Shown here one piece after another: positions 1-33,487 of a stretch of 35,009 nt of DNA. The notes under the pieces are model-generated. The model saw only the letters and a program-made list of their open reading frames with translations. It ran no database searches and was not told the origin of the DNA. This DNA is from Stramenopiles sp. TOSAG23-6. Its lineage: Eukaryota. The first letter of the stretch is position 1; each line of letters begins with the position of its first letter. The stretch is taken from positions 1-35,009 of the forward strand of contig LT635947.1 in the NCBI GenBank assembly GCA_900128565.1, read 5' to 3'. Position numbers and translations under genes: made by a program.

Positions 1-55
1 TAAATTCACAGAGAAAATATCAATTTTAGAAATGCAATAAATAATTTTCTGAAAG

Positions 56-1175: not shown

Positions 1176-1382
1176 TTTATAAAATTTTATTTTTCTTGTT
1201 TTCAAACTTGCGCTCCTGTCCAACAAAACACACCACACTACCACATCACACACTAAATTTTGTTTGTAGAGTTTCTCCTTTCACACAATTTACGTCAAAT
1301 CAAAGATGTCATTCAACTGACATTGCAAACATGCAGATTCAGTTATACTAATTGGTAAAAAGCACATTTAAAAAAAGTGATT

Positions 1383-2949
1383 ATGGTCGTGCCATCATCA
1401 ACCTTAAAAAGATGTAGGTATCAACTCTACTTTAAGTTATCAATAATGGTGTGCGTAGCACTTGGTCTGAGTAATACCCCAGTTGAATCACATAGTGAAA
1501 ATTGCATAGAGACAGAAACATGCAGTACGCACATTCCTTTAAATTTGTTTATTCGGGAACCTTATGCTGAAGACCAAATTGCTGGTCCAGAAGTAGATAT
1601 ACACATTGATGTTCCTTCTAATTTTACAGTTGGCCCTATTGATGGCTTTATTTGTGTCCAACTAGATAAACAAAAAGAAATATGCGCTGAAAATCTTCCA
1701 TCAAACTCCTCAACTCTGAAAGCAAAATTGACTGATGTATCTGTTGGTCGGCACACTATATCAGCGTGGATATCAAAGGGTGCGTCAAACATAAAAATTA
1801 GTCAACATACAGTATCATTTGACACATTAGCTGTGACGAAGCCTTGGTGGGGTCCGTACAGATATAGAACAGAAAATACAACAAAAAGCACGGAACCTCA
1901 AAGCAGAATAAAACACAACATTGAACCTGAAATGACTTGCTCACGTGATGCAGTACACGCTGCGGCAGATCTTGAACAAATTCCGCATTTTCTTGGCCCT
2001 TCACCATCTCGAAAAGTTGCAGAATCTAAAAAAGCGCTTGTCGCATTGTTTGCTGGAAAGAACAATTTTCGTAAAGCTGACGAAAAAATCCGACAATTTG
2101 GTCTAGAAGCCTTCAGTTTTATATTGTTTCTATATGATTTTGCTGAATTAGATATCAAAACATTCCCTTGGCTATCAAAGATCCCAGTGGTTTTGGTTTC
2201 CGGACAAATGAAATGGTTTTATCTAAAACGATTTTTATCTCCAAAAATAGTTTGTCATTACAAGTATATCATAATTGTCGATGACGACTGTGATATGACA
2301 GAACTTGATTTGAAAGGGTTTGTAGATGATATGATGAAATACCAAATTCACATTGGACAACCATCTCACTCGCAAAACTCACATCAACCAATGTATGCTT
2401 TCATGATGAATTTCATTTTTTTTTTCATACCAAATTCCGTACCTAACAATTTTTTTATGTGACATATTTTTTCACCAATATGTACCCATTTCTAATTCAA
2501 AATCCTCAATTGTTGAAAGAAAATGTGGCTGGTATATGGGTAAACTTCATCGAATCTGGGCCACTTCTTGCCTTTTCTACTGAAGCATGTATGTTTTATT
2601 TTTGTTCAAATTCGATTTTTTTTCATACGAAATTTTGTACTTAACAATTTTTTTTGAAATATTTTTCCAAAACACATGGGAATGTTTTTGGCCATTGATG
2701 CAACCTGATTTAGTTTCTGGTTATGGTTATGATTTAATTTGGGTTCCTGCGTGTGCAAAACGTCGAGCGGCTGTAATGCAACAACATTCTATTGTTCATG
2801 TCAATACAGGTAGTGCTTCAAGTGTAAGAGCTAATTGGGTTCCCCGGGCTATCGGTGAAGCCTTTACACTATTTAAAAGGCTTGCCCCTTTCAGTATTTA
2901 TCCAATTGATCCAAAACCATTAGGTAAATTCTACAGTATTTCTAAATAA
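1383..2949 (+). CDS. DUF707-family (putative glycosyltransferase-like) protein; exons 1383-2392, 2482-2588, 2678-2949; ~462 aa
   Basis: KWFYLKRFLSPKIVCHYKYIIIVDDD, IGQP and the spliced NFIESGPLLAFSTEA|WECFWPLMQPDLVSGYGYD match recalled DUF707 motifs (KWWFAKRFLHPDIV..Y.YIF.WDED; FVE.MAPVFSR.AWRC.W..IQNDLVHGWGLD). Three ORF-track ORFs join in frame after two introns are removed. The start could instead be ATG 1446. Confidence 0.8.
2393..2481 (+). other. Non-canonical GT-AT intron 1 (89 nt), family member
   Basis: GTATGCTTT...CCGTACCTAAC...TTCACCAATAT. Removal gives ...HQPM-YPFL in frame. An ATGTA direct repeat makes the exact register slidable. Confidence 0.8.
2589..2677 (+). other. Non-canonical GT-AT intron 2 (89 nt), family member
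   Basis: GTATGTTTT...TTGTACTTAAC...TTCCAAAACACAT. Contains no AG. Removal restores the DUF707 motif EA-W-EC. Confidence 0.88.
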
Positions 2950-2958
2950 ATAATATGC

Positions 2959-3028
2959 TGACATCAAAGAAACTTTTATTAGAAATTGAATGACATCAAA
3001 GAAACTTTAACTTTTATTAGAAATTGAA
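2959..3028. repeat. Tandem duplication (32 nt + 38 nt copies) overlapping the stop codon of the minus-strand orphan gene
   Basis: tgacatcaaagaaacttttattagaaattgaa at 2959-2990 is repeated at 2991-3028 with a 6-nt insertion. Confidence 0.85.
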
Positions 3029-4540
3029 TACCTGTTAAGTTCTCCTCGTATATCATTCACAAGATGAAGAGGTAGGTTATATCTACTTGGTGAAGATGAA
3101 TTCATGTATTGAAGTTCTTTTGTAATCTGATTGAACATTGTAATTGGAGTATTATACCGTTTCGCATCAATAGATAATATTTTTCTAACATATTTGCTAT
3201 GAGTAGGATTCTCGGAAACCCTTGCGTTGTAATTATCTATACTTTTTTTGTATTTTTGTTTTTCAAATAAATTATTTGTTGAATAATTTTCTACAATAAA
3301 TTGATCTGCTATATATTTATTAAGTTCTCCTCGTATATCATTCACAAGATGAAGAGGTAGGTTATATCTACTTGGTGAAGATGAATTCATGAATTGAAGT
3401 TCTTTTGTAATCTGACGAAACATTGAAATTGGTGGGATACTGCCTTTAAACTCTAATCCCCTTTTTTTAGACTTTTCTACCAAATCAGAGGATACAGTAG
3501 ATTGATCTGTACTTGCGTAATTTGTTTTGGTCTCTATATATTGTGATAATTCATCGTCCGATTCATATATATTGTGAAAAATATTTGAAATTTGAAATTC
3601 GTTAGGTACAGAATTTGGTACAAAAAGAAAATTGAAATTATGATGAAAATGTACATTCATTATTAGATGATGAATGATAACTTGGTGGTCCATCATCATC
3701 ACTATCAATACTATAGTTTTCATCTAAATGGTGGACCATTTCTGGAGTTGTTTGAATAATTTTATCTTGTGTGGTCTCTCTACTATTCTCCTCTTCTTTT
3801 TTATATTTTGCCCGTTCAAGCTCACTATTTATTTTATCAATTCGATTTTCTATTTCCTCGCGAAGTCTTTTGTTATAAAATACAAGACACTTTTTATCAT
3901 CCTGGTATTTTATTCTAGCTTCTTTTTTAATAGACTCGCATACTGAACTGCCAAGCTCTTGTTCTGCTAAAGTTTGCCAATTTGATATCGCTGACTCAAA
4001 AATTTCAGTCATATTGGCTAGCTCAGTCGCATAAGAAGTATTTCTGTTTTTTATTGCTGTTTTGAGACTGGATAAAAGATGCCTGTGTTTGCTCATTGAT
4101 TTGCATAGTTCTTTATATGATAGTGTGTTAATTCTATTATTTGCTTCTAAATTGTCAACGCATTGAACGAGTCTGAGCAAACGTTCAGATATGAAAGGAC
4201 CAAGAGAGCTTTCATTTCGAAGCCAAGTCTTCAAATTTGTGCCAGATGCGAATGGTTCAATTCTATAACGAATTCTTTTTTGGTCGTAAAACTCGCTAGA
4301 ATGAATATCGCCTGGCTCAATTGCATGTAGTAATGCATTGATCTCGCTTTGGTCATTTATAAATTCCTGCTCAAACTTTGACCTTGCCGTCATTTTTGAA
4401 ACATTTTGAAAAAAACGTATATTCTCACATGAAAAATTTTTTGACGCTCCAAATAATTCCTGAGTAGCTTCACGACCCTTTCGATATACTGAAAGTGCTT
4501 TTGCTATGGTTTCGTTGCATTTGCTTTGAGTGGGAAACAT
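3007..4540 (-). CDS. Hypothetical protein, ~481 aa; exons 4540-3655 and 3566-3007; helical N-terminal half and a duplicated 40-aa C-terminal motif
   Basis: Two long ORFs (300 and 238 aa) join in frame (SNNE-Y-ESDD) once a family intron is removed. No homology recognised. Confidence 0.7.
3028..3432 (-). repeat. Two near-identical ~115-120 nt coding repeats 285 nt apart (about 3028-3147 and 3313-3432)
   Basis: Both encode PI(S/T)MF(R/N)QITKELQ(F/Y)MNSSSPSRYNLPLHLVNDIRGELN(K/R)Y with nearly identical DNA. Confidence 0.9.
3567..3654 (-). other. Non-canonical GT-AT intron 3 (88 nt), family member
   Basis: Minus strand GTACATTTTCATC...CTGTACCTAAC...TTCACAATATAT. An alternative in-frame AT end lies 6 nt further on. 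Confidence 0.75.
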
Positions 4541-4801
4541 ATTGAGGAAACTCGTTTAGGTTTCGTACTAACTGAAGCAAGCAACTTTTGAAATCACTGG
4601 ATCAACAAGTTTTGTTATATGAGTGACATGGCGACCTACCTGTGCCATCGCCATCGGCATCGATCGGAGTTTTTCATCAGCCGAAACCCACTTGAGAACC
4701 CCCTAACTACTAACCCCACCATCAACTTAGAGAGTATCAGGTAATAAAGTCAATAAAGTGTATTTGTTCCCAACGCCCCTCCAATCTTTATAATATTAGA
4801 T

Positions 4802-5574
4802 ATGGCATGGCGATGTTCAGGAGTGAGTAATGGGGAGTTGATCAAGAATTTAGTCGGAGCTTCCATAATACATACTGATCGAGTAATTCAAACAATGCTT
4901 GTCACTGACCGTCGTTTCTTTACTTCTTCCGATAGACCATACGACGACTCCCCACAAGAAATAGGATTTAACGCTACTATATCTGCTCCTCATATGCATG
5001 GATATGCTTTAGAATGGTTAGTGTCACATTTGAAGCCTGGAATGAAGTCGTTAGATGTTGGGTGTGGCTCTGGATACCTCACAGCTTGTATGGGCCAACT
5101 TTGTGGAAATTGTTATGGAATAGACCATATAAATCAATTAGTAGAATTAGCACGCTCAAATATATCTTCTTATAATCGTGATTTTTTAGACTCCGGCAAA
5201 GTAACCCTTCAGCAGACTGATGGTTTTAATGGTCTACCAGAAGAGGCTCCATTTGATGCAATTCACGTCGGAGCTGCTGCGCCTTCAATTCCTGTTGCTC
5301 TCGTCGATCAGTTGAAGTGTGGAGGTTTGTACGAAAAATTAGAAGAATTCGACCCTGACAGTTCTATTTTTTTGCACTACATTATGTACCTAACGAAATG
5401 TAAACTTGAAATAATTCTTCACAGCACATAATGATCATACCCGTTGGTCCAGTTAATGGTCATCAAGAAATATTAGCTGTGTCTAAGGACAAAGACGGTC
5501 ACGTGAGTACAAAATCTCTTATGGGGGTTAGGTTTATTCCTTTAACTAGTGTAGAAACGCAGATTAAAGGATAA
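4802..5574 (+). CDS. PCMT1: Protein-L-isoaspartate(D-aspartate) O-methyltransferase; exons 4802-5328 and 5430-5574; 223 aa
   Basis: MAWRCSG..N.EL, ATISAPHMH, LDVGCGSGYLTAC, APFDAIHVGAAA, then after splicing QLKCGG-L-MIIPVGP...LMGVRFIPLT. These are the characteristic PIMT motifs. Confidence 0.95.
5329..5429 (+). other. Non-canonical GT-AT intron 4 (101 nt), divergent family member
   Basis: GTACGAAAA...ATGTACCTAAC...TTCACAGCACAT. Removal in this phase restores GGLMIIPVG. The CAG at 5422-5424 gives a frameshift with either nearby GT (5325 or 5329). Confidence 0.88.
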
Positions 5575-5637
5575 TAAAATCTATAATGGGGGTTAGGTGT
5601 ATTCCTTTAACTAGTGTAGAAATTAGTAAAGGATTAT
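5511..5637 (+). repeat. Tandem duplication of the last ~65 nt of the PCMT coding sequence (5511-5575 and 5576-5637)
   Basis: aaaatct.t.atgggggttagg.ttattcctttaactagtgtagaaa-like sequence appears twice in succession. The second copy lies after the stop codon. Confidence 0.9.
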
Positions 5638-5734
5638 AAAATATTTTTTATTTTTCTTTCAAGTTTTTACTTCAGAATTTTACTTTATTTTTTTTTGTTT
5701 TTTTTACCAAATTTTGTAATTATAATAAAAACAA

Positions 5735-8700
5735 TTAAAAAAACATATGATCTTGTAAGCCTGTAGTGTCTGGTTCACTCGATGAATAATATTCTTCTTT
5801 TGCTTTTTCATCCATTCCACTCCAGACAGTCTTATCAACTTTTTCTTTCGTATCTTCTGTTATTTTTTCTAATTTTAAATCATTTACAACATTATCATCT
5901 AATATTTCGTCGGGGGGTGGTCCAGCGTCAATTGACTTCTTTGTCTCTTCTATAATACCTTTATCCTTTGCATTTGACTCGGAAGTATCAAGGTTTGATC
6001 CGCGATTTTTTCTTTGTCTCGATCTCCTACGACGAGATTTTGATTTGGTACTGTCCCCTGCATTATTAGTAGAAGAGCGAGACTTTCTGCGCCTAAATTT
6101 TCTACCAGATCTTGAGGAAATCCCAGACTTGCGGCGAGAAATACTACCTCCGGCTTGATCAGTTGATTTTGATGCATTTTCTAGATTGGTACTACCCTCA
6201 GCCTTATTGCTAGAAGAACGATGTTTTCTGCGTCGAGAGCGCCGAGACTTGCGACTAGAAATATCACCCCCTGCTTGATCAGTTGGTTTTGATATATCTT
6301 CCCCTGCCTTGTTACTAGAAGAACGAGACTTTCTGCGCCTATATTTGCGCCTTCTATCTCCTTTGCCAGAGCTAGAGGATCTTTTGGACCTTTTTTTGGT
6401 TGTGTCGTTCACTCGAGGATCGTCTACTACAGGGACAACTTTCCTTAAAGCTTTGCGTTTTGCCAGTGTTTCTTTACGTTTTATGGCACCTGCTGATATC
6501 TCAGCCATTGCTGCTTCGCTTACGGTGCTAGCTTTACTTATCATCTTACTAAAACGATTACGTTTTTTTCCTGCATCCTCCTCCTTTTTCTTCTTTGTCT
6601 TTGATTGAAGCATTTCTTGTGCCCGAATCAAAACAACTCTAATCCAAGGTAACCTTTTTGATAAAACGAGTCCGCACCAAATCAACAGGAAGCAATTTCC
6701 ACCAATGAGAAATAAACCTAATTGCGTCTGTTCATTTTTTCTTCTGAATGCATTTGCACTTATCAAGAGATTTGAGTAAAAACTACAGAATATTGCAAAA
6801 AGGAGAATAAGCTGAAGATGAAAGTCTACTAAGTGTCTAAATGGGTCTACTAGAGCACACAGAACAAAGAACATCACAGATATGACAACTGCAACAGCAT
6901 TACGTGTAATCCCACCTGGAAGGGCGGCAAGCATACCAGTCAACATTGCCTTTCGAATTAACTCCACAAATTCATACCACCACACTTCATGTCTATAACT
7001 AATGAATATTGATCCATACGTTTTTGTAATTCGGTAGTGAAGGATTCTCAAATCTTTGTTGTACAGAAGTACTTCGTGCATTTCATTTCCCATGGCTTCT
7101 TCTGCTATAAGCCACACTCGATTGGGCCATAAAATACAAAATCCTATCACTGGCACTCCAATAACATACACAATAATAGCGCTGATTGCCACGATTGACA
7201 ATATTCTATATTGACTATCGTCACAACTGACAGCAAGATCCGCAACAAGGTAATTACTTCCATTTACCTCAAAACAATTAAATACACGAAAACATCTCAC
7301 AGAAAAGGATGGATATATGCAAAACATCACTAATATAAGAAGTCTCTTTGCATTCATTGTTGCGCTTGCTTTTGTGAATTTTACTGTATTTCCAGATAAG
7401 TTCTTTAGACCGTGCGCTGTTTTGAGCGCCAGTAGAATAACGAAAAATATCAGTGGCATTACCATCATGTATGCATAAAATTTTGTCGCAAAATCGGATG
7501 AAAAATCACATGGACTTACATATGCTGCAAACCGCATTATATCAAAATTGATTACATGGAAGGATTCAATAAAAGCAGTATAGTTTTCTGGGTATTCTTC
7601 ACCAGAAGCATATTGCATTTGGGATAAAACTTGGGTATAACTCAAAACTAATTTTACCGTTGCGCCCAATTCTGCCCAATATTGCCCTAATAATCCATGC
7701 TTGTCGTCCACACTGTGTAATCGTTTTCTCTTTAAAATTTCTTCCTTGGTCAAAACAGATTTTTTCTGTTCCTCGTGCAATGCTCTAATGAGTGTTAGTC
7801 GATCTTTACGCGAACCCATACTTTTCCGTGCTAATGTATGTCGTAGTCGTGATTCCTTTGCTAATTGTGCTGCTTTGCGCTTCATTCTCATTTCTTCTAG
7901 TTTTGCTTGGTAACTTTCAGTGTGCATAGTTTGTGATGTCCATATAATATTTGGAGTTTCAATATCATTTGTATTGATTCCTTTAGTCATTGAACTAATA
8001 CTTTTTATAGAAACAGAGCGCAATGCAGCTTTTCTAATTTTGTTACGAGTTGCTTCCAACTTTTCAAGGTAACCATCAGCATAGTAACCTTTGTCCGCTT
8101 TCGAAACCATCACACAAATTGATACAAAATAGGAAAAGAAACCAAGCAAAATACAGAGAATAATCATACCTTTTGTATTGCCTGTACTCTCTTGGTTTTC
8201 GTTTTGGCATTTTGTACAATGTTTACCATCAGACTGCAGTGCCCAACCTTGCATACATAATGCACAAAGAATTCCCATATGCCCTTCACGACAATTCTGC
8301 CAGTTAGATGTCGAATTTGCCCTAATAGGCCCGGCTTCACAGTTGTCGGGTGTTAAACATTCACGTAGAGTACAATCGCGATATGCTTTCTGGGATAATG
8401 GATCAGATGCACATTTACAAGAAGAACACGGGTCGTCATTGCAATCATCTGTAATTTCTTTTGGGCAAAACCAGTCTGGATGTTGTACTAACAATTCTGG
8501 GTCTTGCCAGTAACCAACAACTCGTTCATTCACAGAATTCGTTTCACTGCAGCTACCATTAATATAAGGATTTCCATTACATGGTACAATGTGGATACGT
8601 CGATTTACTGCATTAGTTTGTAAAGCTAGACCAAATTTGTCACAACGCGCACCCGGTGGACAAGGTTGGCATTTTTGAGCCCATGTATCCTTTCCAACAA

Positions 8701-11700
8701 GCGCTTCAATAGGTAATGTTAATGCGGTTACGGTATTATTTGATTCTCGACAATTGTATTTTTCCTGGTCTATGCGAAGGCCGTGTGTAGCGCCATCAGG
8801 TCTATTACCATTACAATCATCCGCATATTCAAAGTATTTTGCGTTGAAATATTCATCAGTATACAAAGCTTGAAACTTAGTTGTCGATGGACATTCATAA
8901 GCGCTCGCTTTTGACCCACCAGGGTCGTTTTTCTGGGCAAGAGCAGCAGCTGTACAATCTTTACTCCAAGAACCTTGCCAATACTCTATACTGCCTCCAA
9001 GATGAGCGTAGTACGATGCAGGACATTCGCATCGGCTCCGGTCACCTCCAATTTGTTCCCCAGTCACAAGCTTGACTGAGTTCCAAACGGGGCACTCTAA
9101 AGCTTGGAATTGACCAGCAGCACAAAATTCAATACCTTTGCATTTTACTTTACTAGCAGATGTCATACAATAATAGCCAGCAGGACAGATACTTGGATTA
9201 CGCCAGCCAGCGGTACTATCTTCGAAGTCTGTACGCTTGCCACAGTAAGCACCTGGCTCAGTACATTCCATAACAGTTTTTGAATTCGGACAATAAGAAC
9301 CTTCTGGGCACAAAACCGGTTTTCCTGTCCCTGGAATACAACGATATGCTTCTCCGTGATATGTCTCGCCAGTTGCAATAATTCTGTTTGATGGAGACCG
9401 CATATGCGGAGACCAAGTACCCACTATTTTGTTTGTTTTCACAACTACTTTTGAATTATTTTCATCATCATTATTTGCATCATCATTACTTGCATCATCA
9501 CTACCTGCATCATCACTACCCGCATCATCATTTGACTCTATGCCATTTTCGCACTGACTCTGTGTTGTCCGGGCTTGATACCAAATACCAGCGTGCTTAT
9601 ATTTTCCAATAGGTAAATCTGCCTCGGTCCAAAGTAGAAGCTCGCAATCAATAACATTACGCGGAGAAGATATCCCTCGAACATTCCAAATACCTGAAAT
9701 ACTGCAATCTTTTATCTCGCGACCATGAATTTCACGCATTGCAGAATCATAGCATTTCTCATTTTTCCAAGTACCACCAATGGAACAAGTCGTTTCATCT
9801 CGACTACGATGGATGAATGTATAATTTCCGTGTCGCTCATCCTCCACGGCACAAAAACTTTCTCGAGTTAAAATAGTCATATGATCATTTGCATCAACAC
9901 ATACATCGATACCAACATGAATTGCCGGGCCAATATTTGAGCCAATCATACATCCATGAAAAGGAAAGTCACATGAGTACTTAAACTTGCCCTGTTCACA
10001 ATAGAAACCTTCTGGGCATAATACGGGCATTGAAGTACCTTCAGGGCAATACCAAGATGGAGGCTGAATCGGATGATCCTCTAAAACAAGATTTTTATCT
10101 TTGACTTGGTCTGCTGACGCATTTGGATCTAATACACAAGGTTTTTTGAACTCACCTTCTTCACAATAAAATCCCGCAGGGCATACTTCTGTTTTCGCCG
10201 CATTTTCACAAAAGTATCCTGCTGGACACTTTATAGGTGTAATCGTCTTTTCTGGACAAAACCAAGACACGGTTTCATTTTCAAGTTTAGTTTTTGTTTT
10301 TTTATTTGCCTCTTCATTATATATACAACTTTCTTTTACGTTTGAAGATTCACAAAAAAAACCCGCTGGACATTTCACTTGTTCAAACGAACCTGCGGGG
10401 CAATAAAATCCATTGTTTTCGCAACTTCTCACTTCCCTTGAGTTCTTACATCTGTTCCCAGCCTTGCACACATGTATTTTGGAAAAATATTTCAAAAAAA
10501 ATCTAAAAAAAATGTTAGGTACAAAATTTCGTATGAAAAAAAATCAAAATTGAAAAAAAAATAAAACATACATCTGGTGCACCTGAACCGGTCGGACAAT
10601 ATCTAGCAAATGCATCGACAGACCATATTCCGATTTCTCCATCTGGTGAAGACTCGCAACTCTCCGGAGTGGGTCTATCAATTGTCAAATCGACACCTTC
10701 TACAAGACATCTTCCAAGTTTGGGTTGAAGATTTTCAGATAGGAAAATATTCCTTTTTCTTTCACCAATCATAATATACTCTGCATCTTCAATCTCAAGA
10801 CATGCTCGTCTATCAACGTCTGAAGATAATATAGTACCATCAGACTGTTGACAGACTCCATAAAAATGATTGTCGTAGGGAAAGTCACAAGAGTATTTAT
10901 ACTTTCCTTCTTTACAGTAATATCCCTCAGGACATCTATTTACTCTCATTTTTTCTTTCGTCCTGTATTGCCCATGATGCCATGCACATTCATAATCCCC
11001 CCTGAATTTAGGATTCCATTTTGCACCAATTTCTTTACACAAAGCTTTGTCTGTAACATCACGAATTACACCTTGGCGGTTTATACATGTGCCAGTGTCT
11101 TTAACGTGCCAATTGCCACCAGCAGATGTACAGGAATATTGATCTGTTTTCTCTTTCATTAATGATTGTGCATCCGATGCCACACAGACATCTATATTTG
11201 CGATATCTTCGCCATCAATGATACAATATTCGAATTCTTCATATAATGAAATATCACCTGTAGCAGGAGGACAAAACCATGCAATAGCATTTGAATTTTC
11301 AAGTAAATTACTGTCCATCTGACCCGTAACTGGATCCACTTTAAAAACACAACTTTTCGGAAATGCCCCATCAACACAATAAAATCCACTTGGACAAAGC
11401 ACTTTTGAGTGTGCGCCAGGGCATACATGTGACTCTGGACAAGTTTTAGGAAATACTGTGCCTTCAGGGCAGTAATACTGCTTATCTTCTGCGATGTTTT
11501 CTTGATCTACTTGAGAATCCCAAATACATATTTTTTTTTCCGATGCATTTGAACAATAATACCCAGCAGGGCATATTTTAGGACTATATGAACCTTCTTC
11601 GCAGTAATTAGCATGTCCATCACCCCCACAGGATCTCAGTACACTAGATTTCGGACAGTAAGAGCCCTTTGGGCATATTTTGGGTACCAACGATCCTTCT

Positions 11701-23700: not shown

Positions 23701-26700
23701 GCTTTACCTTGTTGATCGATACCACCTCCAATATAACCTGCTAAACAGGAGCAATGAGATTTATTTTTCGCTAGAGTATACCCGTCGCTTGTTTGAGAAC
23801 ACACGCCGCCAATTCCACACGGTTCATCGGCACATTCATTCACATCAACACATATTTTCTGTACATATCTGAATCTCGTATCAAGTTTAGTGATACAAGC
23901 ATCTGATGAAGTATAAGCACAATCTTCCTTGAGTTCAAAACCAGGTTGACAATCTCTACATTGAAGAAGTGTAGCGCTACTATCACACGTATTGTGAAAA
24001 ATATTTAAAAAAAAAATCGTTAAGATACAATATTTCGATCGGAAAATAAATAAATCTGAAATTCATGATGAAAACGTACACGTCCCCGCGGAATTACATG
24101 CTTCGCCCCCCGAAGCGTCGCATTTACTCATAGTGCCACATACACATCCATCACCCCCGTCCTCACTTAAAGAACAATACTCAGAACCCCAGTATCCAAG
24201 TTTCATGTCTGTCCGAAATTCACACATATCCTTTTTTCTACACTCAGTTTCAGGGCCTGTTTTGTTTGACCAAAACCCAGTAACCGAGTCCACAAATCCA
24301 TAGTTTGCAATACACTCGGCACAAGAGTATTCAGATACAGCTGTCCTGTCGCCATTGAGATTTTTACATGAGTCTATTTCGGATTCCACTGCTTTGCATC
24401 CTTCTAATTGTCTATATGTGTCATGTTCCAGGGGGTCTAATAACTCTTGAATGTCAAGACATGAGGTTCCGACAAAACCATTCAAACAAGTTTTACAATT
24501 TGTAACCGGGTCAAAACCCTTATCACATCTACACTTTGCGTGTACATTGCGCTTGCGATAAATACTAAATCCATCCTCAGGTAATTTGTCAATGAGTTGA
24601 TCACATGTTGTGTTACATGAACAATGAGTTTCACTACTAGAGTAGTTCATATAAAAGAAGTCATCACACAACTCGATACACTCGTTCAATGTTTTTGAAT
24701 TATGATTCTCTTCATTATCAGCAACACACGAATAATCTTCCTTCCAAAATTCAAATGTACTGTCTGATGGCACAGGATTCCCACATGTACCGTGAGAAGA
24801 ACAATCATAATCACTTTCACATAAATCTCCATCTAAGGTTTCACAAAAAACACCAGAATATCCTTTAGGGCACACGCATTGTAACTGTGTTCTTGTATAT
24901 GTATCTGCATTATGATTACTCGACTCTGTAAATGAATCTGGAAGATATCCCTTCTCTCTCAAAGAACAGCGTACTGGCATTTCATAAACGACAAAAGTCG
25001 AAACATCAGCAGCACCTTGATCATTTGATGAGAGCCTAGCGCCACAATATAATGAATCTATAAATGAATTAGTATCAGTAGTCCATTTTCGAGTCGTCCA
25101 GTTGCTTCCATTAGCTGTACATTGTGATTCCTCTGTATACGAGGCATTGTCACACGAATCAACGCACTCTACCTCTGTATTAACATCATTAGGTGTACAA
25201 TATCCATATGTAGTCCAGAATCGAGTTGTCCATATTCCTCCACCCTCTTTACATTCTTTAGAATCTGTATACGAGTCATTGTCACACGAATTAACACAAG
25301 CTACCTCGCTATTTACATCATTAGGTGTACAATAGCCATTTTCTGTAGCTGTATATTTGCATGGTATAAGTTCACCTGTGCATTCATCTATTTTAGGTGT
25401 ATCATCAAGTGGGAATACAACTATAGACTGGTCATCACAACTTTCATCATTGCACCGAAAGCCTACATAGGAATAATTAATTGCTTTCTCTCTTATGATA
25501 CGTTTAAGTGAATACGTGTTCGACACTGTGAAGTAATTACCGCTTTGCTTCATGCAACCTAAATATGTCATAGTTCCGACCCATTTAGAAAGGTTGTCAC
25601 GCTGATTCCATCCTGATTTCTCCATAAAAACAGTATCGCATTTTGACTTTATTGAGTTTGGTTTTGAAATGTCAAGGCACATGCTCATACAATCTGACCT
25701 GCTCATTAAAGACGTATCATACTTTCCTAAATCATCTACTTCATGAAAGCCAGCATGCAACCCACCATCAACAAGTGGAGAACGATATAAATTTGAAACA
25801 TCGGTCTGGATATTGAACTTCAGTGCAGATGACCCAGGAAAACGTTTTGTGTAAGTAGTAAAAGGAGGGTATTTCTTAGAAAGCAATTTTACTTTGTATA
25901 CAGACCATAATCGCGGACGAGAATTCGTTGCATTAGAATTACCCCATTGCTTCTTCGTAACTGACTCCAAGAGAGGTGGCATATCTGTTGGATACTTATT
26001 ACACTGGGTATACGATATATCAGTAGTGATATTTTTTCCAAAAATAACCTTTGAATTTTGGCTAAAGCAGTCGTCGGCGGTTTCACATGAAAATGCAATG
26101 TATTCTATTTTTTTTGTTATAGCGTGTTGAATTGATGATGCAAAAATTCGAGACACATGTGGGGTTATGGTTATGCAGTAGCGCCAGCCGCCTTTGCCAA
26201 CATTATTCACGTTGCCCTCGTTCCATATGGGTACGCCCGCCGTTCCAGCTTTGGTCGAGGAGCAGCCGTGCAACCAAAAATCAGCATGCACCCCTGTCAC
26301 GGCGTTATCGCCATTGCCCACATTGTAACTGAGGGTCGGGAATTCTGCGGCGCACTCAGCCTTGGTCAGTGCACGAGTTCCACTTGGGCACGCCGCCCCT
26401 TTCGTCTCGTGTTCCGTTACTGCCCCTTCCGTCTCTTGTTCCGTTACTGCAACGGCATCAGGGAGTCCGCCAAATGCAGAAGCCGTAGTATAACCATCTT
26501 GCTTTATTACACGTGAACCAAATTTTGGCCAACATTCGCATATTTTATTTGCATTATGAAATGTAAAATAGAAACCAGCTTCCCCCAAATTGACACATTC
26601 CCTTCGACAAGAAGCGGCATCAGCTACTACTGTTTCAACTCTTGTTTCCAAAACAAATGGAATGCTCGGAATATCACTGTCTTCATTGTACACTCGAGTT

Positions 26701-29700
26701 GCTTCTCGACTGTGATTATAAACATAATTATCATTTGGAGGGCGTTGAAGTTCGTAGATCCGAAATAGGTCGTTTGTAGCTTCACTTATAATACACTCGG
26801 AAGTCCAAATACAATTATTTGAACCATCGGTATCATAAAAATATGAAATAAAATTGCATGATAATTCACTCACACATATATCCTTACAATTTTCCAAACT
26901 TGAAGCATTTGTCTGACCATTTGAAATACTATTTGAATCATCATATGCGCATACCCCAACACACGAATTTGGCTTGCAAAGCATTTTCCACTCATTTTGG
27001 ATCAGTGGGGCTTCTTGTATTCCATTAATATGAGACGCATCAACCAGTGGGTAGTATTTTATGTATTCCTTGTTCTCTTCACACGTGGTGTCGTCCCAAT
27101 TTTTGAATAGACATTTACANTGACCATTTTTCATTTTAGATGGTGGCTTACGACCTGGAGTTGTGTCTCTGTTGATTATTACACCATCATCAGTTGACAT
27201 AGAAGATCGAATAAAGCGAATATCACTCATACTAGTTATCGAGAAATAAGTCCATTCCGCTTTTATATAATCATCGCAAAAATTCTTATTATCAGAATTA
27301 TAAGATTCTGTTTCGGATTTCCACAAAAAAATTTCTGCCCCGAACTTAACCTCAATTTTATTTTTCAAATCAGACATGCTCATTCCTTGAAGTATCTTAA
27401 CACCAGTACCTTCATTCCAGTATGATGGTCTGATTTCACCGAGTTCACCGGTGTTTGACGTAGCACACTTCATTTTCCAATAAACAGGTTCCAAATCATT
27501 GACAGTCACGTCACCGCCATCCCAAAACACTTCGAATCCCACAGCCTTTCGCTGATTATCCCAAGATTTAAAATCTGTTGGTGTTCGCCCAAGTATATTA
27601 CTAGTAGTTTGAATTTCACTAGTACATGAATTGTGAAAAAATATTTTACATTTGAAATTCGTTAGGTACAAAATTTTCTATGAAAAAACAAATCGAAATT
27701 CAATTTTGAAAACGTACACGATTTGTGACACCATTCAATAGCAGATGCTTCTTTTTCTACTAAAGGCCCAAATTGATTTCCGTCAGGTAGTATGCTCCCG
27801 CTTCCATCGAAAGTTTTAATGAAATCATTTTCATTTGAACTTGTCGAATCTGCACAAGAACCTAAAATACCAGCTGAGTAAGGCAAAGTTGTTACATCAC
27901 CATGAAGACAACCTTGGAATTTGACACTATTAACCAATTCGACGAATATATTAGTATCTTCATCATTGTTAGCAGAAGACATTTTGAACTTTCCTCCAAC
28001 GTGAACTTCAAAGGAAAAACTACCAACACCATTGCTCCATGCTGGTTGTCCGTCAAACACAGGAACTTCTTGATCTCCGTTTGTTGTAACACAGTTTGTA
28101 CAGGGGGGATTTGTCCAAAACCCCCTTCGTCGCGACCACGATCCCTCACAAGGATCAGGAGATATATGCCAATACCCTGAAGTTTTGTTTACTGGTTCGT
28201 AGTACAAAAATATGTATTGTGCTACATTTTGAAATTCAGGAGTATCGACCCATTGATTATATGTTGATTCAGGAATGCAGTTTCTTGATTTATCGAGATT
28301 ACACGTCCATTTAATTTTATGTTTGTATTGTGAAATACCATTGCAGAGTGGTACATATTCAGTAGAGTAACTCCCATTCAAAAAACCCCAAAGACTGGAA
28401 GTTGTTCCATAAACAAAAAGTTCAGTGTTAAAATCTGTTTCGTCCTCAATACAAGACCCACCGTTTTGACAAGGACTGCTATCACAAATTGAACTGAATG
28501 ATTGACACGACGTAGACGCTATTTCACTGGTATATTTCCCAGGAGAACAATGGAAACAGTCTGTTTGACCTGGATCAGGCTGATACATATGAATAGGACA
28601 ATGATGACAATCTTCTATGCTATTCTTCTTTACATAATCAGCATTTGTTGGAAAATAACGCCCCGAAGGACATTTGATACAAAAATTTTCTTCAAAAAGA
28701 TAGTGCCCAGGATAACACGTCGCACACTGTCTGGGACCACGTCTGTCTTCAATTGACTTGGGTTCACCAAATTCACAATCCGCTGGCCAGTTCCGACATT
28801 CTAATTTACCTTCTTGTTCTATTGTGAAAAACCTACCCTCAGATGGATAAACAGAAAAAAATTCACATTTTCCAGAATCCACCAAATTGCATTTGGCTTC
28901 TTGTGTACGCTCTGATACCCCATTACAACGACCTTCAGATTCATTCGTTGTGGAAAATATTTTAAAGTTTAAATTCGTTAGGTAAAAAACTTGATACAAA
29001 AAAAATGAAATTTAAATTACCGATGAAAATGTACGGTTGTAATGCTTTGAGTAATGGATGAAAGATCAGGGTAATCTTCTGAAGTGTCCACTGCTTTGCG
29101 AAGCCGATTTTTAATTGCATCATCTGGTTGATACATGCAAAAACCCTTCACTAGTTTTTGCATATATTCCCAATCTGAACATTTTGTACAAACACCCTCA
29201 TTTATGTGACCATAGGGACCGGGAGACTGAATCAGAAGATTTCTATTAGAATTTTTTTCACCTTCATCTTCATTGCAAGGCAATAATGACTGACACTTTT
29301 TACCTCGAGTCATATCATTGCCAACCCTTTTATAAGAACCCCTAGGACATGGGACACAATAATTTTGCGTTGCCCCTTTACCGGTTCCATGATTACAAGG
29401 TTTACAAGTTGATAGATCGACGTATTCTTCACCACAAATTTCTTTATAAATATCAAGGCTGTTATAACCATCTTCAGCACAAAATGTACATACATCATTT
29501 TCACGTCTTCCTCCATCAAAGACATCTGTTTTTTCCCCGCAATCAGTATCACATAATTTGCACTCATTTATGCTATTTGTGCGCTTGTCGTTATATTTAC
29601 CATTTGAACATTCTGAACATATAGGTGGGTCTGTACTTCCTTCGACGGAGCATGCATCCCCTGGCCATTCAAATCCTCGGGGACACACCTCATTACAATC

Positions 29701-32700
29701 GATACACGCCGTTGCAGTACTTGAGGTACTGCTATACCGGCCGATAGGGCAGATTTTACATATTGGTGCATTCTTCGTCGGAGAGTCTTGTGGTATGACT
29801 TTATATCCTGGACCACAAACAGCCTCTAGACAGCCTATTGAAGTATCCGTGGCGTCGTTGTACGTATCCTCAGGACATTCAATACAATGAGGTGACTCCT
29901 CCTCCTCCTCCTCCTCCTCCTCCTCCTCCTCCTCAGTTGAGTAATGAAATGTCATTTGATTTGTACCAGGACTTCCATCTTGATTATCCTTACAATGATC
30001 TGTGCTCGGTAAATGTGTACCTGGTGGACACTCACAAGACAAGCAAGATGTGCCAGAGAACTTTTGAGTATTTTGATATTTACCATATGGACAAGTTTTA
30101 CAGGAAGGTATCTTTGTGGGATTGCAAATGCTTTCTCCTACAGTCCAAGATCGAGATGTCCATGTATCCCCATTAGAAGTACATTCTGATTGAACTGTAT
30201 ACGAGGCATTGTCACATGAATCAACGCACTCTACCTCTGTACTTACATCATTAGGCGTACAATGTCCATATGCAGTCCAGAATCGAGTTGTCCATGTATT
30301 CCCATTAGTTTCACATTGCGATTGATCTTCATAGTTGGCATTGTCACACGAATCAACACACTTTGCCTTTGTATTTTTAGTTACTTCATTAGGTGTACAA
30401 TATCCTTCTCTTGTAACAGAACTTTCAACATACTCCCCTTGTGCACACGCACAAGCATAACATTCATTTTTACTAAACAGATCATATTCTATTCGGGCTG
30501 TCTCCAAATACGTACCATGTGGACAATTATGACATACACCCTTTCGATCTTTATGATGTTTTGATGTTTCTGGTAGATATGTCCCCCTTTTGTCACATTC
30601 GTGCCATTTACAATCCTTTCCAGAACTCCATTGTCCATCAGGACATTCATTACATTGCAGTGCTCCCGTGCCATGCTCACATCCACTCGGAGAATAGCCC
30701 GGATTACATTTACACTCTGTGCACTCTAAACCTCTGTGATATTTTCCGCGTATCTTACTATTGCACAGTGGACTATAATTGTTTGCACTGCATCCAAGAC
30801 ATGATACACAACTAGTGTTTAACGAACTTGGAATCTCATTCTCTTTGGAATTTCTAAATACTGGATCATTGTTATATTTTCCATAATCACATTGTAAACA
30901 AACTGGACTTGCATCCGTATGACAACTATGACTAATATTCCCAGCACTATCCGACGTCGTTTCCCAATACTCCCCATCAGGACAACCGCGGGCGGGGAAT
31001 GCAGCAAAAAAATTAATTACAGCTTCTTCACTACACGCTATGCATGGGTCCGTAATAATTTGCGATCTCAGGTAAAATCCAGCTTCACAATCTTTACACA
31101 CAACACAAGAAGCGTCACTCACAGCACCTTTCCTATCGAAATTTGAATTATATTCACCTATGTCGCAAAAAACGGAACATTCTCTACACTCAGTTAATTG
31201 TTTATCACGGTATTCTCGATAATACCCAGCTTCACAGTCTTCACAACTCCAAATATCTTCATAGTATCCCTGTTTAATTCCATATCCTAATTTTGTACGT
31301 TTTTGAATTGCTTTTTTCCCAGCAGGACAATATATACATCCATTAAATACTGTTCCACCCACAAAATATGGGTGTACTTTTCCTTTAACACATGTTTTAC
31401 ACGCTGTATGACCATTGTCGGGATAACTGAAATTTCCGTAAAAACATTGCTTTTGTGTACTTTGTCCCAGATTATCTTGGTAAAACTGAACATCACAATT
31501 TTTGCACTTCGTTTCATTTTCATCATTCTGATACTGTCCTCTGTCACAATTTTTACACTGCGATTTATTTTCCTCATTCTGATACTTTCCACTGGGACAA
31601 TTTTTACACTTGTCTTGTCCTATCTCATTCTGATACTTTCCTGTGGGACAATTTTTACACTTGTCTTGTCCTATCTCATTCTGCCACTGTCCTTTACCAC
31701 AGGATTTACATTCAGTTGCACCTTCAAAATCAGAAAAATACCCCGGAAGACATTTGGTACATTTTTCCTCTTCTTTAGAAAACCATCTTTTTTTAGCTAT
31801 GTGTGTCCAAAGAAATTTTTTCTTTGAGAGATTATTAGCTTGGTCGACCAGAGTACAATCTTCTTCGTACGTTCTATCTGCTAAGGGCTTACATTTTTTA
31901 TAGTTCGATATTTCATAAGTTAAATTGTTTTCATTTCTGTAAAAACCTTTGGCACACTTTACACACAACAACCAACCTTTTTGTGAACAAAATTTTTTGT
32001 ACTCAAGAGGTGTGCCCCATTCTTCAAGATTATAGGATCCGGTAGCAAACACCGGAACGTACCCTGTGTTGGAACATTCTAAAACATTACCGTTGTTTTG
32101 TTTTAATTCATAAGATTCTTTTATTTGATAGTCAGCCAAATCATCTCTAGTCCTTATTATTTGAAAATTGTTGTTGTATTCAGAGTTTGAAAAATATCGA
32201 CTTTCACGTTTATGTTTTTTGGGAAAATATTTTCAAGAAAAATTTCATTAGATACGGAATTTCATACAAAATAAAAAAATTAAAATTCACAATGAAAATG
32301 TACGCCAAAACCAGGAATATAATACCTGTTATTTTTGTTAGTACTATCTTCGTTCCTACAAAACCCTTCATATATCCCATCCCCGTCCGTATGATAGTCC
32401 TTATGCTCGGGTTCCTCTAAAATATCATTTTCAAAACAAGGTTTTTGATTGTCAAAAGTAGGTTCATCAGATTCAGGTCGGCACCAAAGAACATTGAGAA
32501 AGACATTCCTATATGCTTGATGTGATGCCAAAAAAAAATTTAATTTTTTTTTTGTTAGGTACAATATTTCTTTGGAAAACAAATAAAATTGAAATTAAAA
32601 TGATAAAAACGTACATGTCGTGCTGCTTCTTCTGCTTCTGCTTCCTCTCTCGCCAACTCTGCCGTTTCTCTTCGATTCTCGGCTTCAAGAACTTCATCCG

Positions 32701-33129: not shown

Positions 33130-33487
33130 TGTAGTCTTATCGATATAGTATTGAAGAAAAGTATTCGTAAACAGCTTAATACTAATGACTTTATAGAATT
33201 AAATTGTCAACGGTCGTTTAGTAAGTAGATATATCAGAGCTTGGGTGTGTTCTCTCCAACAAAAAAAAACCGCCATTTTGATATCCCTCCTTACCTACGA
33301 AAATTCGTACCAATTCGTCTTTTTTTTTTTCGGTTTCGTTTTTGAATAAGATCCGGAGGTTTTTCTTCGTTTTTCTTTGCCGTTGATTTCAAAATTTGAA
33401 ATTAAATTGTTTTGACTCAAGATCGATACTAGTTTTTGTGAGTAAACTAAAGTAATATAGTAGTTTTTTTGTATTTTTTTTTATAAT

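What the first reader, a model, noticed from the sequence alone, without database searches (positions are those of the whole stretch)
2393..32614. Every intron in the window is a non-canonical GT-AT (AG-less) intron from a single family
Seen: ten 88-101 nt inserts interrupt four unrelated genes (2393-2481, 2589-2677, 3567-3654, 5329-5429, 10472-10571, 23987-24079, 27626-27717, 28943-29034, 32212-32303, 32520-32614). Each is oriented sense to its host gene. The approximate consensus is GTAYRTTTT...AAATTYTGTACCTAAC...AAATATTTTTCMMAA-NNCAT. Cutting at GTAY and restoring the frame gives 3' trinucleotides TAT, CAT, TAT, CAT, CAT, CGT, CAT, AAT, CAT, CAT, i.e. YAT in place of YAG. I found no GT-AG intron. 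Known: U2 spliceosomes almost always need AG; lineages rich in non-canonical introns include Fritillaria borealis, Amoebophrya, euglenids and diplonemids. I do not know of a lineage dominated by GT-AT. Inference: this organism's spliceosome, or a variant of it, routinely accepts AU 3' ends.
Basis: partly seen in the sequence, partly recalled or inferred. Interest (0 to 1): 0.95.

Follow-up and report, generated by a model that had tools for sequence, protein, structure and literature searches.

The report
AG-less GT…AT introner family
Ten copies of one short AT-rich repeat interrupt four genes of an unidentified marine protist and behave as introns that start with GT but end with AT instead of the near-universal AG, which is a rare exception to a basic rule of splicing.

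Summary
Ten 88-101 nt inserts sit at the stated coordinates, all sense to their host gene. All ten start GTA and end in T: nine end AT and one ends GT. Deleting them fuses broken frames into four continuous ORFs, one of 8863 aa. Leave-one-out profiles recover all ten as one family.

RNA contigs from two independent metatranscriptome studies skip exactly 100 nt at 10472-10571. A seawater DNA run keeps the inserts. Homologue alignments fix three more junctions without gaps. GT..AT is the only terminal pair compatible with all four tested junctions. None of the four can be GY-AG.

The inserts carry a GTAYRT donor, a CTAAC-like branch motif 32-42 nt before the 3' end, and a T-rich tract. They do not fit U12-type motifs and have no end-pairing structure. 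Summed depth over insert 5 in the DNA run is about 2600 times the flanks, so the family is highly repeated.

Best reading: transposon-like "introners" removed by a major-type spliceosome that ligates after AU. Six junctions lack direct evidence, and three of those have untested GT-AG alternatives. The machinery and the organism remain unidentified. This is a new variant of a known kind.

The parts
2393..2481 (+). Insert 1 (89 nt), GT..AT, in the DUF707 gene, phase 2
   Evidence: The junction is gap-free against the three closest homologues (HQP-M-YPFLIQ vs HQPQYPFLIQ). No in-frame GY-AG alternative lies within +/-60 nt. A DNA contig of run X3 spans it.
2589..2677 (+). Insert 2 (89 nt), GT..AT (slack also allows AT..AC), in the DUF707 gene, phase 1
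   Evidence: The split codon t|gg rebuilds a Trp present in 11 of 12 aligned homologues. It is 94% identical to insert 5.
3567..3654 (-). Insert 3 (88 nt), GT..AT, in a gene with no Pfam family, phase 1
   Evidence: A DNA contig of X3 spans it. There is no RNA or homology check of the junction.
5329..5429 (+). Insert 4 (101 nt), GT..AT, in the PCMT gene, phase 2; the most diverged copy
   Evidence: The spliced PCMT aligns without a gap at the junction to 7 of 8 homologues. The AG 5 nt upstream of the 3' end gives a stop when used with the GT donor at the insert start (read from the sequence); one search lists in-frame combinations of that AG only with upstream donors, which delete 21-51 nt. 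A DNA contig of X3 spans it.
10472..10571 (-). Insert 5 (100 nt), GT..AT (slack also allows AT..AC), in the giant gene, phase 0; the only junction seen in RNA
   Evidence: RNA contigs in X5 (depth 34.9) and X9 (depth 10.9) skip 100 nt with 4 nt of slack, and both have 255 nt on the shorter side. X3 DNA contigs enter the insert from both sides. An in-frame AG 9 nt downstream is not used.
23987..24079 (-). Insert 6 (93 nt), GT..GT (ends CGT), in the giant gene, phase 1
   Evidence: ACGT|GT is repeated at both junctions. Untested GT(+4)..AG(+7) alternative.
27626..27717 (-). Insert 7 (92 nt), GT..AT, in the giant gene, phase 1
   Evidence: Untested GT(+4)..AG(+7) alternative, net -3 nt.
28943..29034 (-). 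Insert 8 (92 nt), GT..AT (ends AAT), in the giant gene, phase 0
   Evidence: Boundary slack is only 1 nt, so AT..AC is impossible if exactly 92 nt are removed.
32212..32303 (-). Insert 9 (92 nt), GT..AT, in the giant gene, phase 0
   Evidence: There is no boundary slack at all. The nearest in-frame GY-AG alternative would delete 33 nt.
32520..32614 (-). Insert 10 (95 nt), GT..AT, in the giant gene, phase 0
   Evidence: An untested GT(+4)..AG(+4) alternative of equal length exists.
1383..2949 (+). Host gene 1: DUF707-family protein, three exons
   Evidence: Pfam DUF707, E 3e-23; alignment to homologues.
3007..4540 (-). Host gene 2: protein with no Pfam family, two exons
4802..5574 (+). Host gene 3: protein-L-isoaspartate O-methyltransferase (PCMT), two exons
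   Evidence: Pfam PCMT, E 2.5e-51; alignment.
5735..33130 (-). Host gene 4: giant gene of about 27 kb, seven exons, Cys-rich secreted-type protein of about 8,900 aa; scaffold gap at 32828-32864
   Evidence: Ephrin_rec_like repeats occur only in the N-terminal exons. There is no Pfam family in the remaining roughly 7,100 aa scanned.

Best explanation
The ten inserts are copies of one short (about 90 nt, 78% A+T) high-copy intron family, an 'introner'. It has spread into unrelated genes of an unidentified marine protist. Each copy is transcribed within the pre-mRNA and cut out precisely.

The most likely machinery is a major (U2-type) spliceosome. The proposed steps are these. The donor GUAYRU is read by U1/U6. 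A CUAAC-type branch site inside the conserved UGUACCUAAC box pairs with U2. A U-rich tract follows. Exon ligation takes place 32-42 nt downstream, directly after ...ACAU, so the last intron base is U rather than the usual G.

Many other AU dinucleotides lie between the branch box and the end. The site is therefore probably chosen by the conserved 3' block (AAAUAUUUUUCACAA + 4-5 nt) and its fixed spacing from the branch box, not by the dinucleotide alone.

The short direct repeats around both junctions (consensus AT|GT) suggest that the last bases derive from a target-site duplication, so that removing element plus one repeat restores the original reading frame.

Shown: the family, sense orientation, frame restoration, RNA-level removal of one copy, exact junctions of three more by homology, absence of AG, and DNA retention. 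Inferred: the spliceosome as machinery, the branch point, transposon origin, and the rule for choosing the 3' site.
For: - Ends and orientation: 10 of 10 are sense, 10 of 10 start GTA, 9 of 10 end AT.
- Frames: removal gives continuous ORFs of 470, 486, 238 and 8863 aa.
- RNA: contigs of two studies (X5, X9) skip exactly 100 nt at insert 5. No X3 DNA contig shows that joint, and X3 contigs span inserts 1, 3 and 4 and enter 2 and 5.
- Homology: the junctions of inserts 1 and 2 and insert 4 are gap-free against homologues.
- Termini: the boundary slack leaves GT..AT as the only pair shared by these four junctions. Insert 1 allows AT-AT, TG-TA, GT-AT, TA-TG, AT-GT and TG-TA. Insert 4 allows TG-CA or GT-AT.
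- Family: leave-one-out recovery is 10 of 10. Inserts 2 and 5 are 94% identical along their whole length, filler included.
- Copy number: summed DNA depth in the bin holding insert 5 is 24,957 against about 9.6 in the flanks. The bin with insert 2 reaches 2,880. In total 3,472 X3 records were laid on 11 kb.
- Signals: a TA(C/T)(C)T(T)AA(C/T) box is present in 10 of 10. It lies 32-35 nt from the 3' end in 9 of 10 and 42 nt in one.
- AG depletion: 9 AG observed in 931 nt against 24.3 expected, and only 2 AG in the ten tails behind the box.
- Phases are mixed: 4, 4 and 2 in phases 0, 1 and 2, as expected for insertions.
Against: - Only 1 of 10 junctions is seen in RNA, and that one also fits AT..AC.
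- Inserts 6, 7 and 10 have in-frame alternatives that use the second GT of GTACGT and a nearby exonic AG. No data here exclude these.
- Insert 6 ends GT, not AT.
- No terminal inverted repeat beats shuffles in any of the 10 copies.
- The junction repeats do not beat permuted exon/intron pairings (p 0.05-0.3), so transposon hallmarks are weak.
- Depth in contig data is a sum over all organisms in the sample and is not a copy number.
- No genome is held, so no snRNA or splicing factor could be inspected.
- No further copies could be fetched from any collection.
- The shared sequence could partly be an unusually long obligatory splicing signal rather than common descent.
Confidence: 0.72

Rival explanations
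1. These are minor-spliceosome (U12-type) introns. U12-type splicing tolerates non-AG 3' ends, and GT-AT is a known rare U12 subtype. Under this reading a lineage-specific, transformed minor system, as in Physarum, removes them.
For: In Physarum, GT-AT made up 17% of 1,425 non-canonical introns, and 71% of those introns were U12-type (passages of 10.1101/2020.10.12.336362). Inserts 2 and 6 carry CTTAAC, which is close to the U12 branch consensus. Inserts 2, 5 and 10 can be read as AT..AC. The donor has a T run at +6 to +9, as the U12 donor does.
Against: None of the 10 donors matches RTATCCTT. They carry 1-5 mismatches, with the C at +5/+6 missing. In 6 of 10 copies the best TCCTTRAY-like match lies 32-35 nt from the 3' end, not 10-20 nt, and every best match has 1-2 mismatches. 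AT..AC is impossible for inserts 1, 3, 4, 7, 8 and 9.
Confidence: 0.08
2. The inserts are not a mobile family. They are ordinary, old introns of an intron-poor organism whose splicing code is unusually long and strict, with fixed length, donor, branch box and 3' block. Under this reading the copies look alike because of constraint, not common descent. The AG-less 3' end would still be real.
For: The conserved blocks coincide with the expected signal positions. Mean identity is only 69%. There are no TIRs and no significant TSD. Earlier notes of this scan on another alga found exactly this confusion.
Against: Inserts 2 and 5 are 94% identical across filler as well as signals. Summed DNA depth over inserts 5, 2, 3 and 1 is about 2600, 300, 12 and 10 times the flanks at >=95% likeness, while the diverged insert 4 shows no excess. 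That graded pattern fits repeat subfamilies of different age. The closest PCMT relative sequence with readthrough (P0003) diverges at a different position.
Confidence: 0.1
3. Removal happens at the RNA level but is not spliceosomal. It could be an endonuclease-plus-ligase pathway, or the unknown pathway of euglenozoan nonconventional introns, recognising the element's own sequence.
For: There is no AG. A long conserved 3' block and a conserved internal box could serve as a protein or guide recognition site. Nonconventional introns of euglenids and hemistasiid diplonemids also lack GT-AG.
Against: Those introns have variable ends and stable pairing of the two ends. Here 10 of 10 start GT, no consensus structure is predicted (0 pairs), and single-sequence fold z-scores run from -1.9 to +1.8. 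The GTAYRT + CTAAC + T-tract arrangement is the standard spliceosomal layout.
Confidence: 0.05
4. There is no splicing. The joined form would come from DNA lacking the insert (polymorphic insertion or somatic excision as in ciliates), or from reverse-transcriptase template switching at the 4-nt repeat.
For: The single RNA joint has 4 nt of identical sequence on both sides, which is the typical context of RT artefacts. Table 5b (joined form in other runs) was not available.
Against: The joined form is the assembled main path, with 255 nt on the shorter side, in two independent studies, and it is absent from the DNA run's contigs. All ten removals restore frames. Three junctions are confirmed by homologues independently of any RNA. 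DNA contigs of a second population (98-99% protein identity: P0123) keep inserts 1, 3 and 4.
Confidence: 0.03

Closest known systems
Introner elements of Micromonas pusilla, Aureococcus and other aquatic eukaryotes (Gozashti et al. 2022 and 2025, PMC9860276 and PMC12130899; review PMC11282704)
   Same: One family of short, similar sequences that act as introns in many unrelated genes. They are sense-oriented, highly repeated, carry their own splice signals, and have short repeats at the junctions so that splicing restores the frame (passages).
   Different: Published introners are reported with familiar termini. The 2025 survey treated GT/GC/GA/AT donors and AG/AC acceptors as expected, checked families with mainly non-canonical or unfamiliar sites by hand, and discarded those that failed the check. 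Here the acceptor is AT. No TIR was found and the TSD is not significant.
Non-canonical MITE-derived introns of the tunicate Fritillaria borealis (Henriet et al. 2019, as summarised in PMC11282704; PMC13326754 seen as a search listing only)
   Same: Transposon-derived introns that a modified major spliceosome removes despite non-AG ends. AG-AT is one of the two commonest pairs, so an AT 3' end is accepted there.
   Different: There the 5' end is AG, not GT, the ends are highly diverse, and TIRs and TSDs are evident. That organism is an animal. Here the donor is a conventional GTAYRT and only the acceptor deviates.
Non-canonical introners of Amoebophrya (PMC7789003, via review PMC11282704) and Polarella glacialis
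   Same: Marine protists in which invasive repeated elements form introns with non-GT-AG borders.
   Different: In those, borders are variable, conserved TIRs and 3-5 nt TSDs are present, and genomes are GC-richer. Here one fixed pair (GT..AT) is used and no TIR is present.
U12-type introns with GT-AT ends (Physarum polycephalum, 10.1101/2020.10.12.336362)
   Same: The same terminal dinucleotides.
   Different: The donor and branch motifs and the branch-to-3' distance do not fit. In Physarum, GT-AT is 17% of the 0.8% of introns that are non-canonical. Here it is 9 of 10.
Nonconventional introns of euglenids and hemistasiid diplonemids (PMC12621601, PMC4770533 listing, PMC11282704)
   Same: Abundant AG-less introns in marine or free-living protists, thought to derive from MITE-like elements.
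   Different: Those have variable, often G/C-rich ends that pair with each other. Here the ends are constant, AT-rich and unpaired.

Membership tests
Spliceosomal intron, major (U2) type | Precise removal from RNA while the DNA keeps the sequence | tested here: met
   Met for insert 5 only. RNA contigs of X5 and X9 skip 100 nt and DNA run X3 does not. The other nine sites had no RNA cover.
Spliceosomal intron, major (U2) type | GU at the 5' end with a U1/U6-compatible extended donor | tested here: met
   10 of 10 start GTA. They have 0-2 mismatches to GTATGT. That consensus is recalled from general knowledge.
Spliceosomal intron, major (U2) type | Branch-site consensus (CURAY) upstream of the 3' end, followed by a pyrimidine tract | tested here: inconclusive
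   The motif is present in 10 of 10, 32-42 nt from the end, and the tail is T-rich. Its use as the branch point was not testable.
Spliceosomal intron, major (U2) type | AG at the 3' end | tested here: not met
   0 of 10. AG is excluded for inserts 1, 2, 4 and 5.
Spliceosomal intron, major (U2) type | Lariat intermediate; dependence on U1/U2/U4/U5/U6 | not testable with these tools
   Only contigs of the runs were available, and no genome is held.
U12-type (minor) intron | Donor RTATCCTT | tested here: not met
   0 of 10 perfect; 1-5 mismatches. The motif is as given.
U12-type (minor) intron | Branch motif TCCTTRAY about 10-20 nt from the 3' end | tested here: not met
   The best matches have 1-2 mismatches. 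They lie 32-35 nt from the end in 6 of 10, 20 nt in one, and 4-7 nt in three.
U12-type (minor) intron | Minor snRNAs present in the genome | not testable with these tools
   No genome is held. There is no Rfam match in the window.
Introner (transposon-derived intron family) | Many introns in unrelated genes that are alike in sequence along their whole length | tested here: met
   Ten copies in four genes. Leave-one-out recovery is 10 of 10 and pairwise identity reaches 94%.
Introner (transposon-derived intron family) | High copy number across the genome | tested here: inconclusive
   Summed depth over insert 5 is about 2600 times the flanks, and 3,472 X3 records were laid. However, contig depth sums all organisms in the sample.
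Introner (transposon-derived intron family) | Target-site duplication at the junctions | tested here: inconclusive
   Identical runs of 0-6 nt span the two junctions, with a mean of 3.2 nt (my sum of the left and right runs). They are not better than permuted pairings (p 0.05-0.3).
Introner (transposon-derived intron family) | Terminal inverted repeats or another transposon hallmark; an autonomous partner | tested here: not met
   TIR: 0 of 10 copies beat shuffles at the 5% level. The best are 34 of 300 and 61 of 300 shuffles at least as good. An autonomous element was not searchable.
Euglenozoan nonconventional intron | Variable borders and a stable structure pairing the two ends | tested here: not met
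   The borders are constant. There are 0 consensus pairs, and fold z-scores run from -1.9 to +1.8.
Ciliate-type internal eliminated sequence (DNA excision) | Absent from the bulk (somatic) DNA | tested here: not met
   DNA contigs of X3 contain inserts 1, 3 and 4 and both edges of 2 and 5 at the same depth as the flanks. The window itself is DNA.

The most novel reading that the evidence does not exclude
In this lineage the 3' splice site would not be defined by any terminal dinucleotide. The element would carry a 'ruler', made of the branch box plus a conserved 3' block at fixed spacing. The spliceosome would ligate at a set position behind it, whatever bases the transposon's target-site duplication left there. 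Those bases are usually AT because the element prefers AT|GT targets, and they are GT in insert 6, whose upstream exon also ends in GT. That would make every insertion scarless by construction. It would be a dominant, AG-independent mode of exon ligation in a free-living eukaryote with a conventional GU donor.
Probability: 0.25. Interest if true: 0.9.

Novelty: new variant of a known kind. Interest (0 to 1): 0.78.

Why it matters
The AG at the 3' end is among the most conserved features of spliceosomal introns. In the second catalytic step its G normally contacts the first intron G (established knowledge, recalled).

The known large-scale exceptions are Fritillaria, Amoebophrya, euglenozoans and the U12 system. 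They have either unconventional donors, variable ends or a separate spliceosome. A family with a normal GU donor and branch box but a fixed AU acceptor, apparently in very many copies, isolates the 3'-site problem. It offers a natural system for asking how the acceptor is chosen and what must change in Prp8, U2AF, step-2 factors or snRNAs to accept U at -1.

It also bears on intron gain. Surveys that start from GT-AG-biased annotations would miss such families (method passage), so introner prevalence in marine protists may be underestimated. Gene callers would also break these genes, as the readthrough ORFs P0001 and P0123 in the protein collection show.

My searches of the held library found no paper describing a GT-AT-dominated lineage. 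Subscription papers and supplements were not visible. In particular I could not read the original description of non-canonical introns in single-cell genomes of marine diplonemids (Gawryluk et al. 2016, cited). It should be checked for overlap.

Tried and rejected
**RNA cover.** In the four runs laid there was no RNA contig across inserts 1-4. Run X13 had no contig across insert 5.

**Spliced proteins in the protein collection.**
- The 72-aa exon between inserts 9 and 10, searched among longer proteins, gave no hit.
- The PCMT and DUF707 searches returned only DNA-derived readthrough ORFs of this organism (P0001, P0123) plus distant relatives.

**More copies of the element.**
- A loose gapped motif gave 120 stretches in genome contigs and 83 in viral contigs. 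All 203 fetched loci are chance matches, with 0 nhmmer hits at E<=1e-3.
- A 22-mer of insert 5 gave 0 matches in metagenome contigs and 0 in viral contigs.
- A second core motif gave 0 in viral contigs.
- A protein scan with exon P0122 in metagenome contigs found no relative.
- So the terminal dinucleotides could not be tallied beyond the window.

**Other lines that led nowhere.**
- Whole genome: none is held, so no snRNA or factor inspection was possible.
- Rfam: no match in the window.
- Structure: no consensus pairs and no unusual stability.
- TIR: none. TSD: not significant.
- Taxon: the best named PCMT hits are animals, fungi, dinoflagellates and a brown alga at 50-56% identity. The atlas and the cluster look-up gave no organism. 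I leave it as an unidentified marine protist.
- Earlier notes of this scan: nothing on this genome or sequence.

**Rejected readings.** AT-AC as the general reading (impossible for six inserts), GY-AG for inserts 1, 2, 4 and 5, DNA excision, and RT artefact. The reasons are given under the rival explanations.

Full report
**1. What is in the sequence**

The window is 35,009 bases, about 38% G+C, with two runs of N at 27120 and 32828-32864. It is almost entirely coding. It holds six genes:
- an LRR protein (59-1054, - strand);
- a DUF707 protein (1383-2949, +);
- a protein with no family (3007-4540, -);
- a protein-L-isoaspartate methyltransferase, PCMT (4802-5574, +);
- a giant Cys-rich gene (5735-33130, -);
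- a PAC1-like protein (33488-34456, -).

All ten lie sense to their host gene and all begin GTA. Their last three bases are TAT, CAT, TAT, CAT, CAT, CGT, CAT, AAT, CAT, CAT. So nine end AT and one (23987-24079) ends GT.

Deleting the ten stretches turns the fragmented frames into four continuous reading frames of 470, 486, 238 and 8863 aa. Intron phases are mixed: four in phase 0, four in phase 1 and two in phase 2.

**2. One family, beyond chance**

A profile of all ten finds only these ten in the window at E<=10, with no intergenic or antisense copy. With about 94% of the window coding (my estimate from the gene coordinates), the lack of intergenic copies means little. The 10 of 10 sense orientation is unlikely by chance (two-sided about 0.002).

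Leave-one-out profiles recover every copy, with E from 5e-13 to 1.3e-5. Pairwise identity averages 69% and reaches 94% between inserts 2 and 5, along the whole length and not only at signal positions.

The conserved blocks are:
- GTAYRTTTT(C)A at the 5' end;
- AAATTYTGTACCTAAC(GAATTT) in the middle;
- AAATATTTTTCACAA plus 4-5 nt at the 3' end.

**3. Are they removed, and where exactly?**

Runs holding this stretch were found in seven studies, 14 of the 20 listed runs being RNA. I laid three RNA runs from three studies and one seawater DNA run on bases 1-11000.

In X5 (poly(A) RNA) a 6,418-nt contig joins 10469 to 10570. In X9 (a different study) a 4,996-nt contig does the same. Each skips exactly 100 nt, has 255 nt on the shorter side, and has 4 nt of placement slack. 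Read on the gene strand, the five possible placements give AT-GT, TA-TG, GT-AT, TG-CA and AT-AC.

The DNA run X3 has no such joint. Its contigs span inserts 1, 3 and 4 completely. They break inside inserts 2 and 5, as expected at a high-copy repeat. X13 did not cover the junction, and no RNA contig crossed inserts 1-4.

For three more inserts the junction is fixed by homology:
- Insert 4. The spliced PCMT aligns without a gap at the junction to 7 of 8 homologues (KCGG-LM-IIPVGP against KCGGKLVIPVGP and the like). The eighth (P0003) is itself a readthrough product.
- Insert 1. The spliced DUF707 protein reads HQP-M-YPFLIQ against HQPQYPFLIQ in the three closest relatives.
- Insert 2. The split codon t|gg rebuilds a Trp present in 11 of 12 homologues.

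Given these mRNAs, insert 1 allows only AT-AT, TG-TA, GT-AT, TA-TG, AT-GT or TG-TA. Insert 4 allows only TG-CA or GT-AT. GT..AT is therefore the only pair shared by the four tested junctions, and none of them can be GY-AG. An in-frame AG 9 nt downstream of insert 5 is demonstrably not used.

The other six rest on family alignment and frame restoration. Inserts 8 and 9 have 1 and 0 nt of slack, so they cannot be AT-AC. For inserts 6, 7 and 10, an in-frame alternative exists that uses the second GT of GTACGT and a nearby exonic AG (net -3, -3 and 0 nt). It remains untested.

**4. What kind of intron?**

The layout is that of a major-type spliceosomal intron:
- a GTAYRT donor with 0-2 mismatches to GTATGT;
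- a CTAAC-type box in 10 of 10 copies (CTAAC in seven, CTTAAC in two, CTAAT in one);
- a T-rich tail;
- an end 32-35 nt behind the box in nine copies and 42 nt in one.

AG is depleted: 9 are observed in 931 nt against 24.3 expected from base composition, and only 2 lie in the ten tails. This is either inherited from the founder sequence or a sign that AG would still compete as an acceptor.

It is not U12-like. None of the 10 donors matches RTATCCTT (1-5 mismatches). The best branch-consensus matches sit 32-35 nt from the 3' end in six copies rather than 10-20 nt (motifs as).

It is also unlike the nonconventional introns of euglenids and hemistasiid diplonemids. Those have variable, G/C-rich, mutually pairing ends. 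Here no consensus pair is predicted, and the ten folds have z-scores between -1.9 and +1.8.

Each tail between the box and the end contains four to seven AT dinucleotides and up to two CAT. The dinucleotide alone therefore cannot define the site. I infer that the conserved 3' block and its spacing do.

**5. Mobile-element character**

In the DNA run, the summed depth of the bin holding insert 5 is 24,957 against about 9.6 in the flanks. The bin with insert 2 reaches 2,880, and the bins with inserts 3 and 1 reach 113 and 100. The bin with the most diverged insert 4 shows no excess (9.4). In all, 3,472 records of that run were laid on 11 kb.

Depth from contigs sums all organisms in the sample and is not a copy number. 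Even so, the graded pattern is what repeat subfamilies of different age would give. The RNA run X5 shows the same excess (7,871 and 653 against 34.9), so intron-containing RNA, or DNA carried into the library, is abundant there.

The two junctions of each insert share runs of identical bases. Left of the cut the runs are 2, 3, 2, 1, 2, 4, 1, 0, 0, 4 nt. Right of the cut they are 3, 1, 0, 0, 2, 2, 4, 1, 0, 0 nt. Both junctions have the consensus AT|GT. Insert 6, the one ending GT, is flanked by ACGT|GT on both sides.

This looks like a target-site duplication. However, permuting the exon/intron pairings gives nearly as many matches (p 0.05-0.3), because both sites share the same consensus. No terminal inverted repeat exceeds shuffles. 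I therefore call these introners in the descriptive sense: a repeated family acting as introns. A DNA-transposon origin remains an inference.

**6. What could not be done**

- No genome is held, so snRNAs and splicing factors could not be inspected.
- The element and the genes are absent from the JGI metagenome collection and from IMG/VR.
- My first, looser motif produced only chance matches.
- The protein collection holds only DNA-derived readthrough ORFs of this organism.
- The organism could not be placed.

**7. Comparison with what is known, and verdict**

Transposon-derived introns, some with non-canonical borders, are an established class: Micromonas and Aureococcus introners, Polarella, Amoebophrya, Fritillaria (AG-AC/AG-AT), and euglenids. 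GT-AT occurs as a rare U12 subtype in Physarum.

What is different here is the combination of four features: a conventional GU donor and branch box, a fixed AU acceptor, no end pairing, and apparent dominance (all ten introns of a 35-kb window).

Searches of the held library found no description of such a lineage. Subscription papers and supplements were not visible, and the 2016 paper on single-cell genomes of marine diplonemids (cited) could not be read.

I rate this a new variant of a known kind. Confidence in the spliceosomal-introner reading is about 0.72, and interest is about 0.78.

Noticed in passing
window 5735-33130 (-): One gene of about 27 kb encodes a protein of roughly 8,900 aa with a signal-peptide-like start (MLSFHRLLCIIALLLSC...). 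Ephrin_rec_like Cys-rich repeats occur only in the N-terminal exons. The remaining roughly 7,100 aa scanned match no Pfam family. It is expressed: RNA contigs cover its 3' 6 kb in three studies.
   Followed up: partly
window 32828-32864: The 37-N run is a scaffold gap of unknown true length. The reading frame upstream of it (from the ATG at 33130) and the frame downstream of it differ, so the 8863-aa ORF reads the first 9 residues in the wrong frame.
   Followed up: partly
window 3036-3107 and 3325-3396 (-): The gene with no family ends in two tandem copies of a module. A stretch of about 70 nt is nearly identical in both, encoding ...ITKELQ(F/Y)MNSSSPSRYNLPLHLVNDIRGELN....
   Followed up: no
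window 5522-5560 and 5587-5625 (+): About 35-40 nt of the PCMT C-terminal coding sequence (atgggggttaggt.tattcctttaactagtgtagaaa) is repeated just behind the stop codon.
   Followed up: no
window 5690-5725 (+): The intergenic stretch between the convergent PCMT and giant genes holds about 20 nt resembling the element's core (ttttaccaaattttgtaat). This probably explains the weak cross-joints from 5661-5718 to 10470-10471. It is not a profile hit. It may be a decayed fragment or a chance match in AT-rich DNA.
   Followed up: partly
inserts 1, 2, 3, 5 (positions 33-37 of each): The reverse complement of the first five intron bases recurs exactly about 35 nt downstream in 4 of 10 copies, and it co-varies with the donor (GTATG...CATAC in three, GTACA...TGTAC in one). 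Two more copies have TGTAT. This could be subfamily history or a weak donor-masking hairpin (the MFE folds use it in inserts 1-3).
   Followed up: partly
protein P0003 against P0002 (relatives of the window's PCMT, 62-63% identity): The two are identical up to ...PALVAQ. P0003 then diverges into an Ala/Arg/Cys/Pro-rich tail, five residues upstream of the window's insert-4 position. It looks like an unspliced, G+C-rich intron at a different position in a related organism.
   Followed up: no
window 1-11000 against DNA run X3: A second seawater population carries the same genes at 98-99% protein identity (P0123) and holds all five inserts of this stretch. Small indels cluster in the intergenic stretch 4609-4706 and around 1107-1370 (tables 3-5).
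   Followed up: partly
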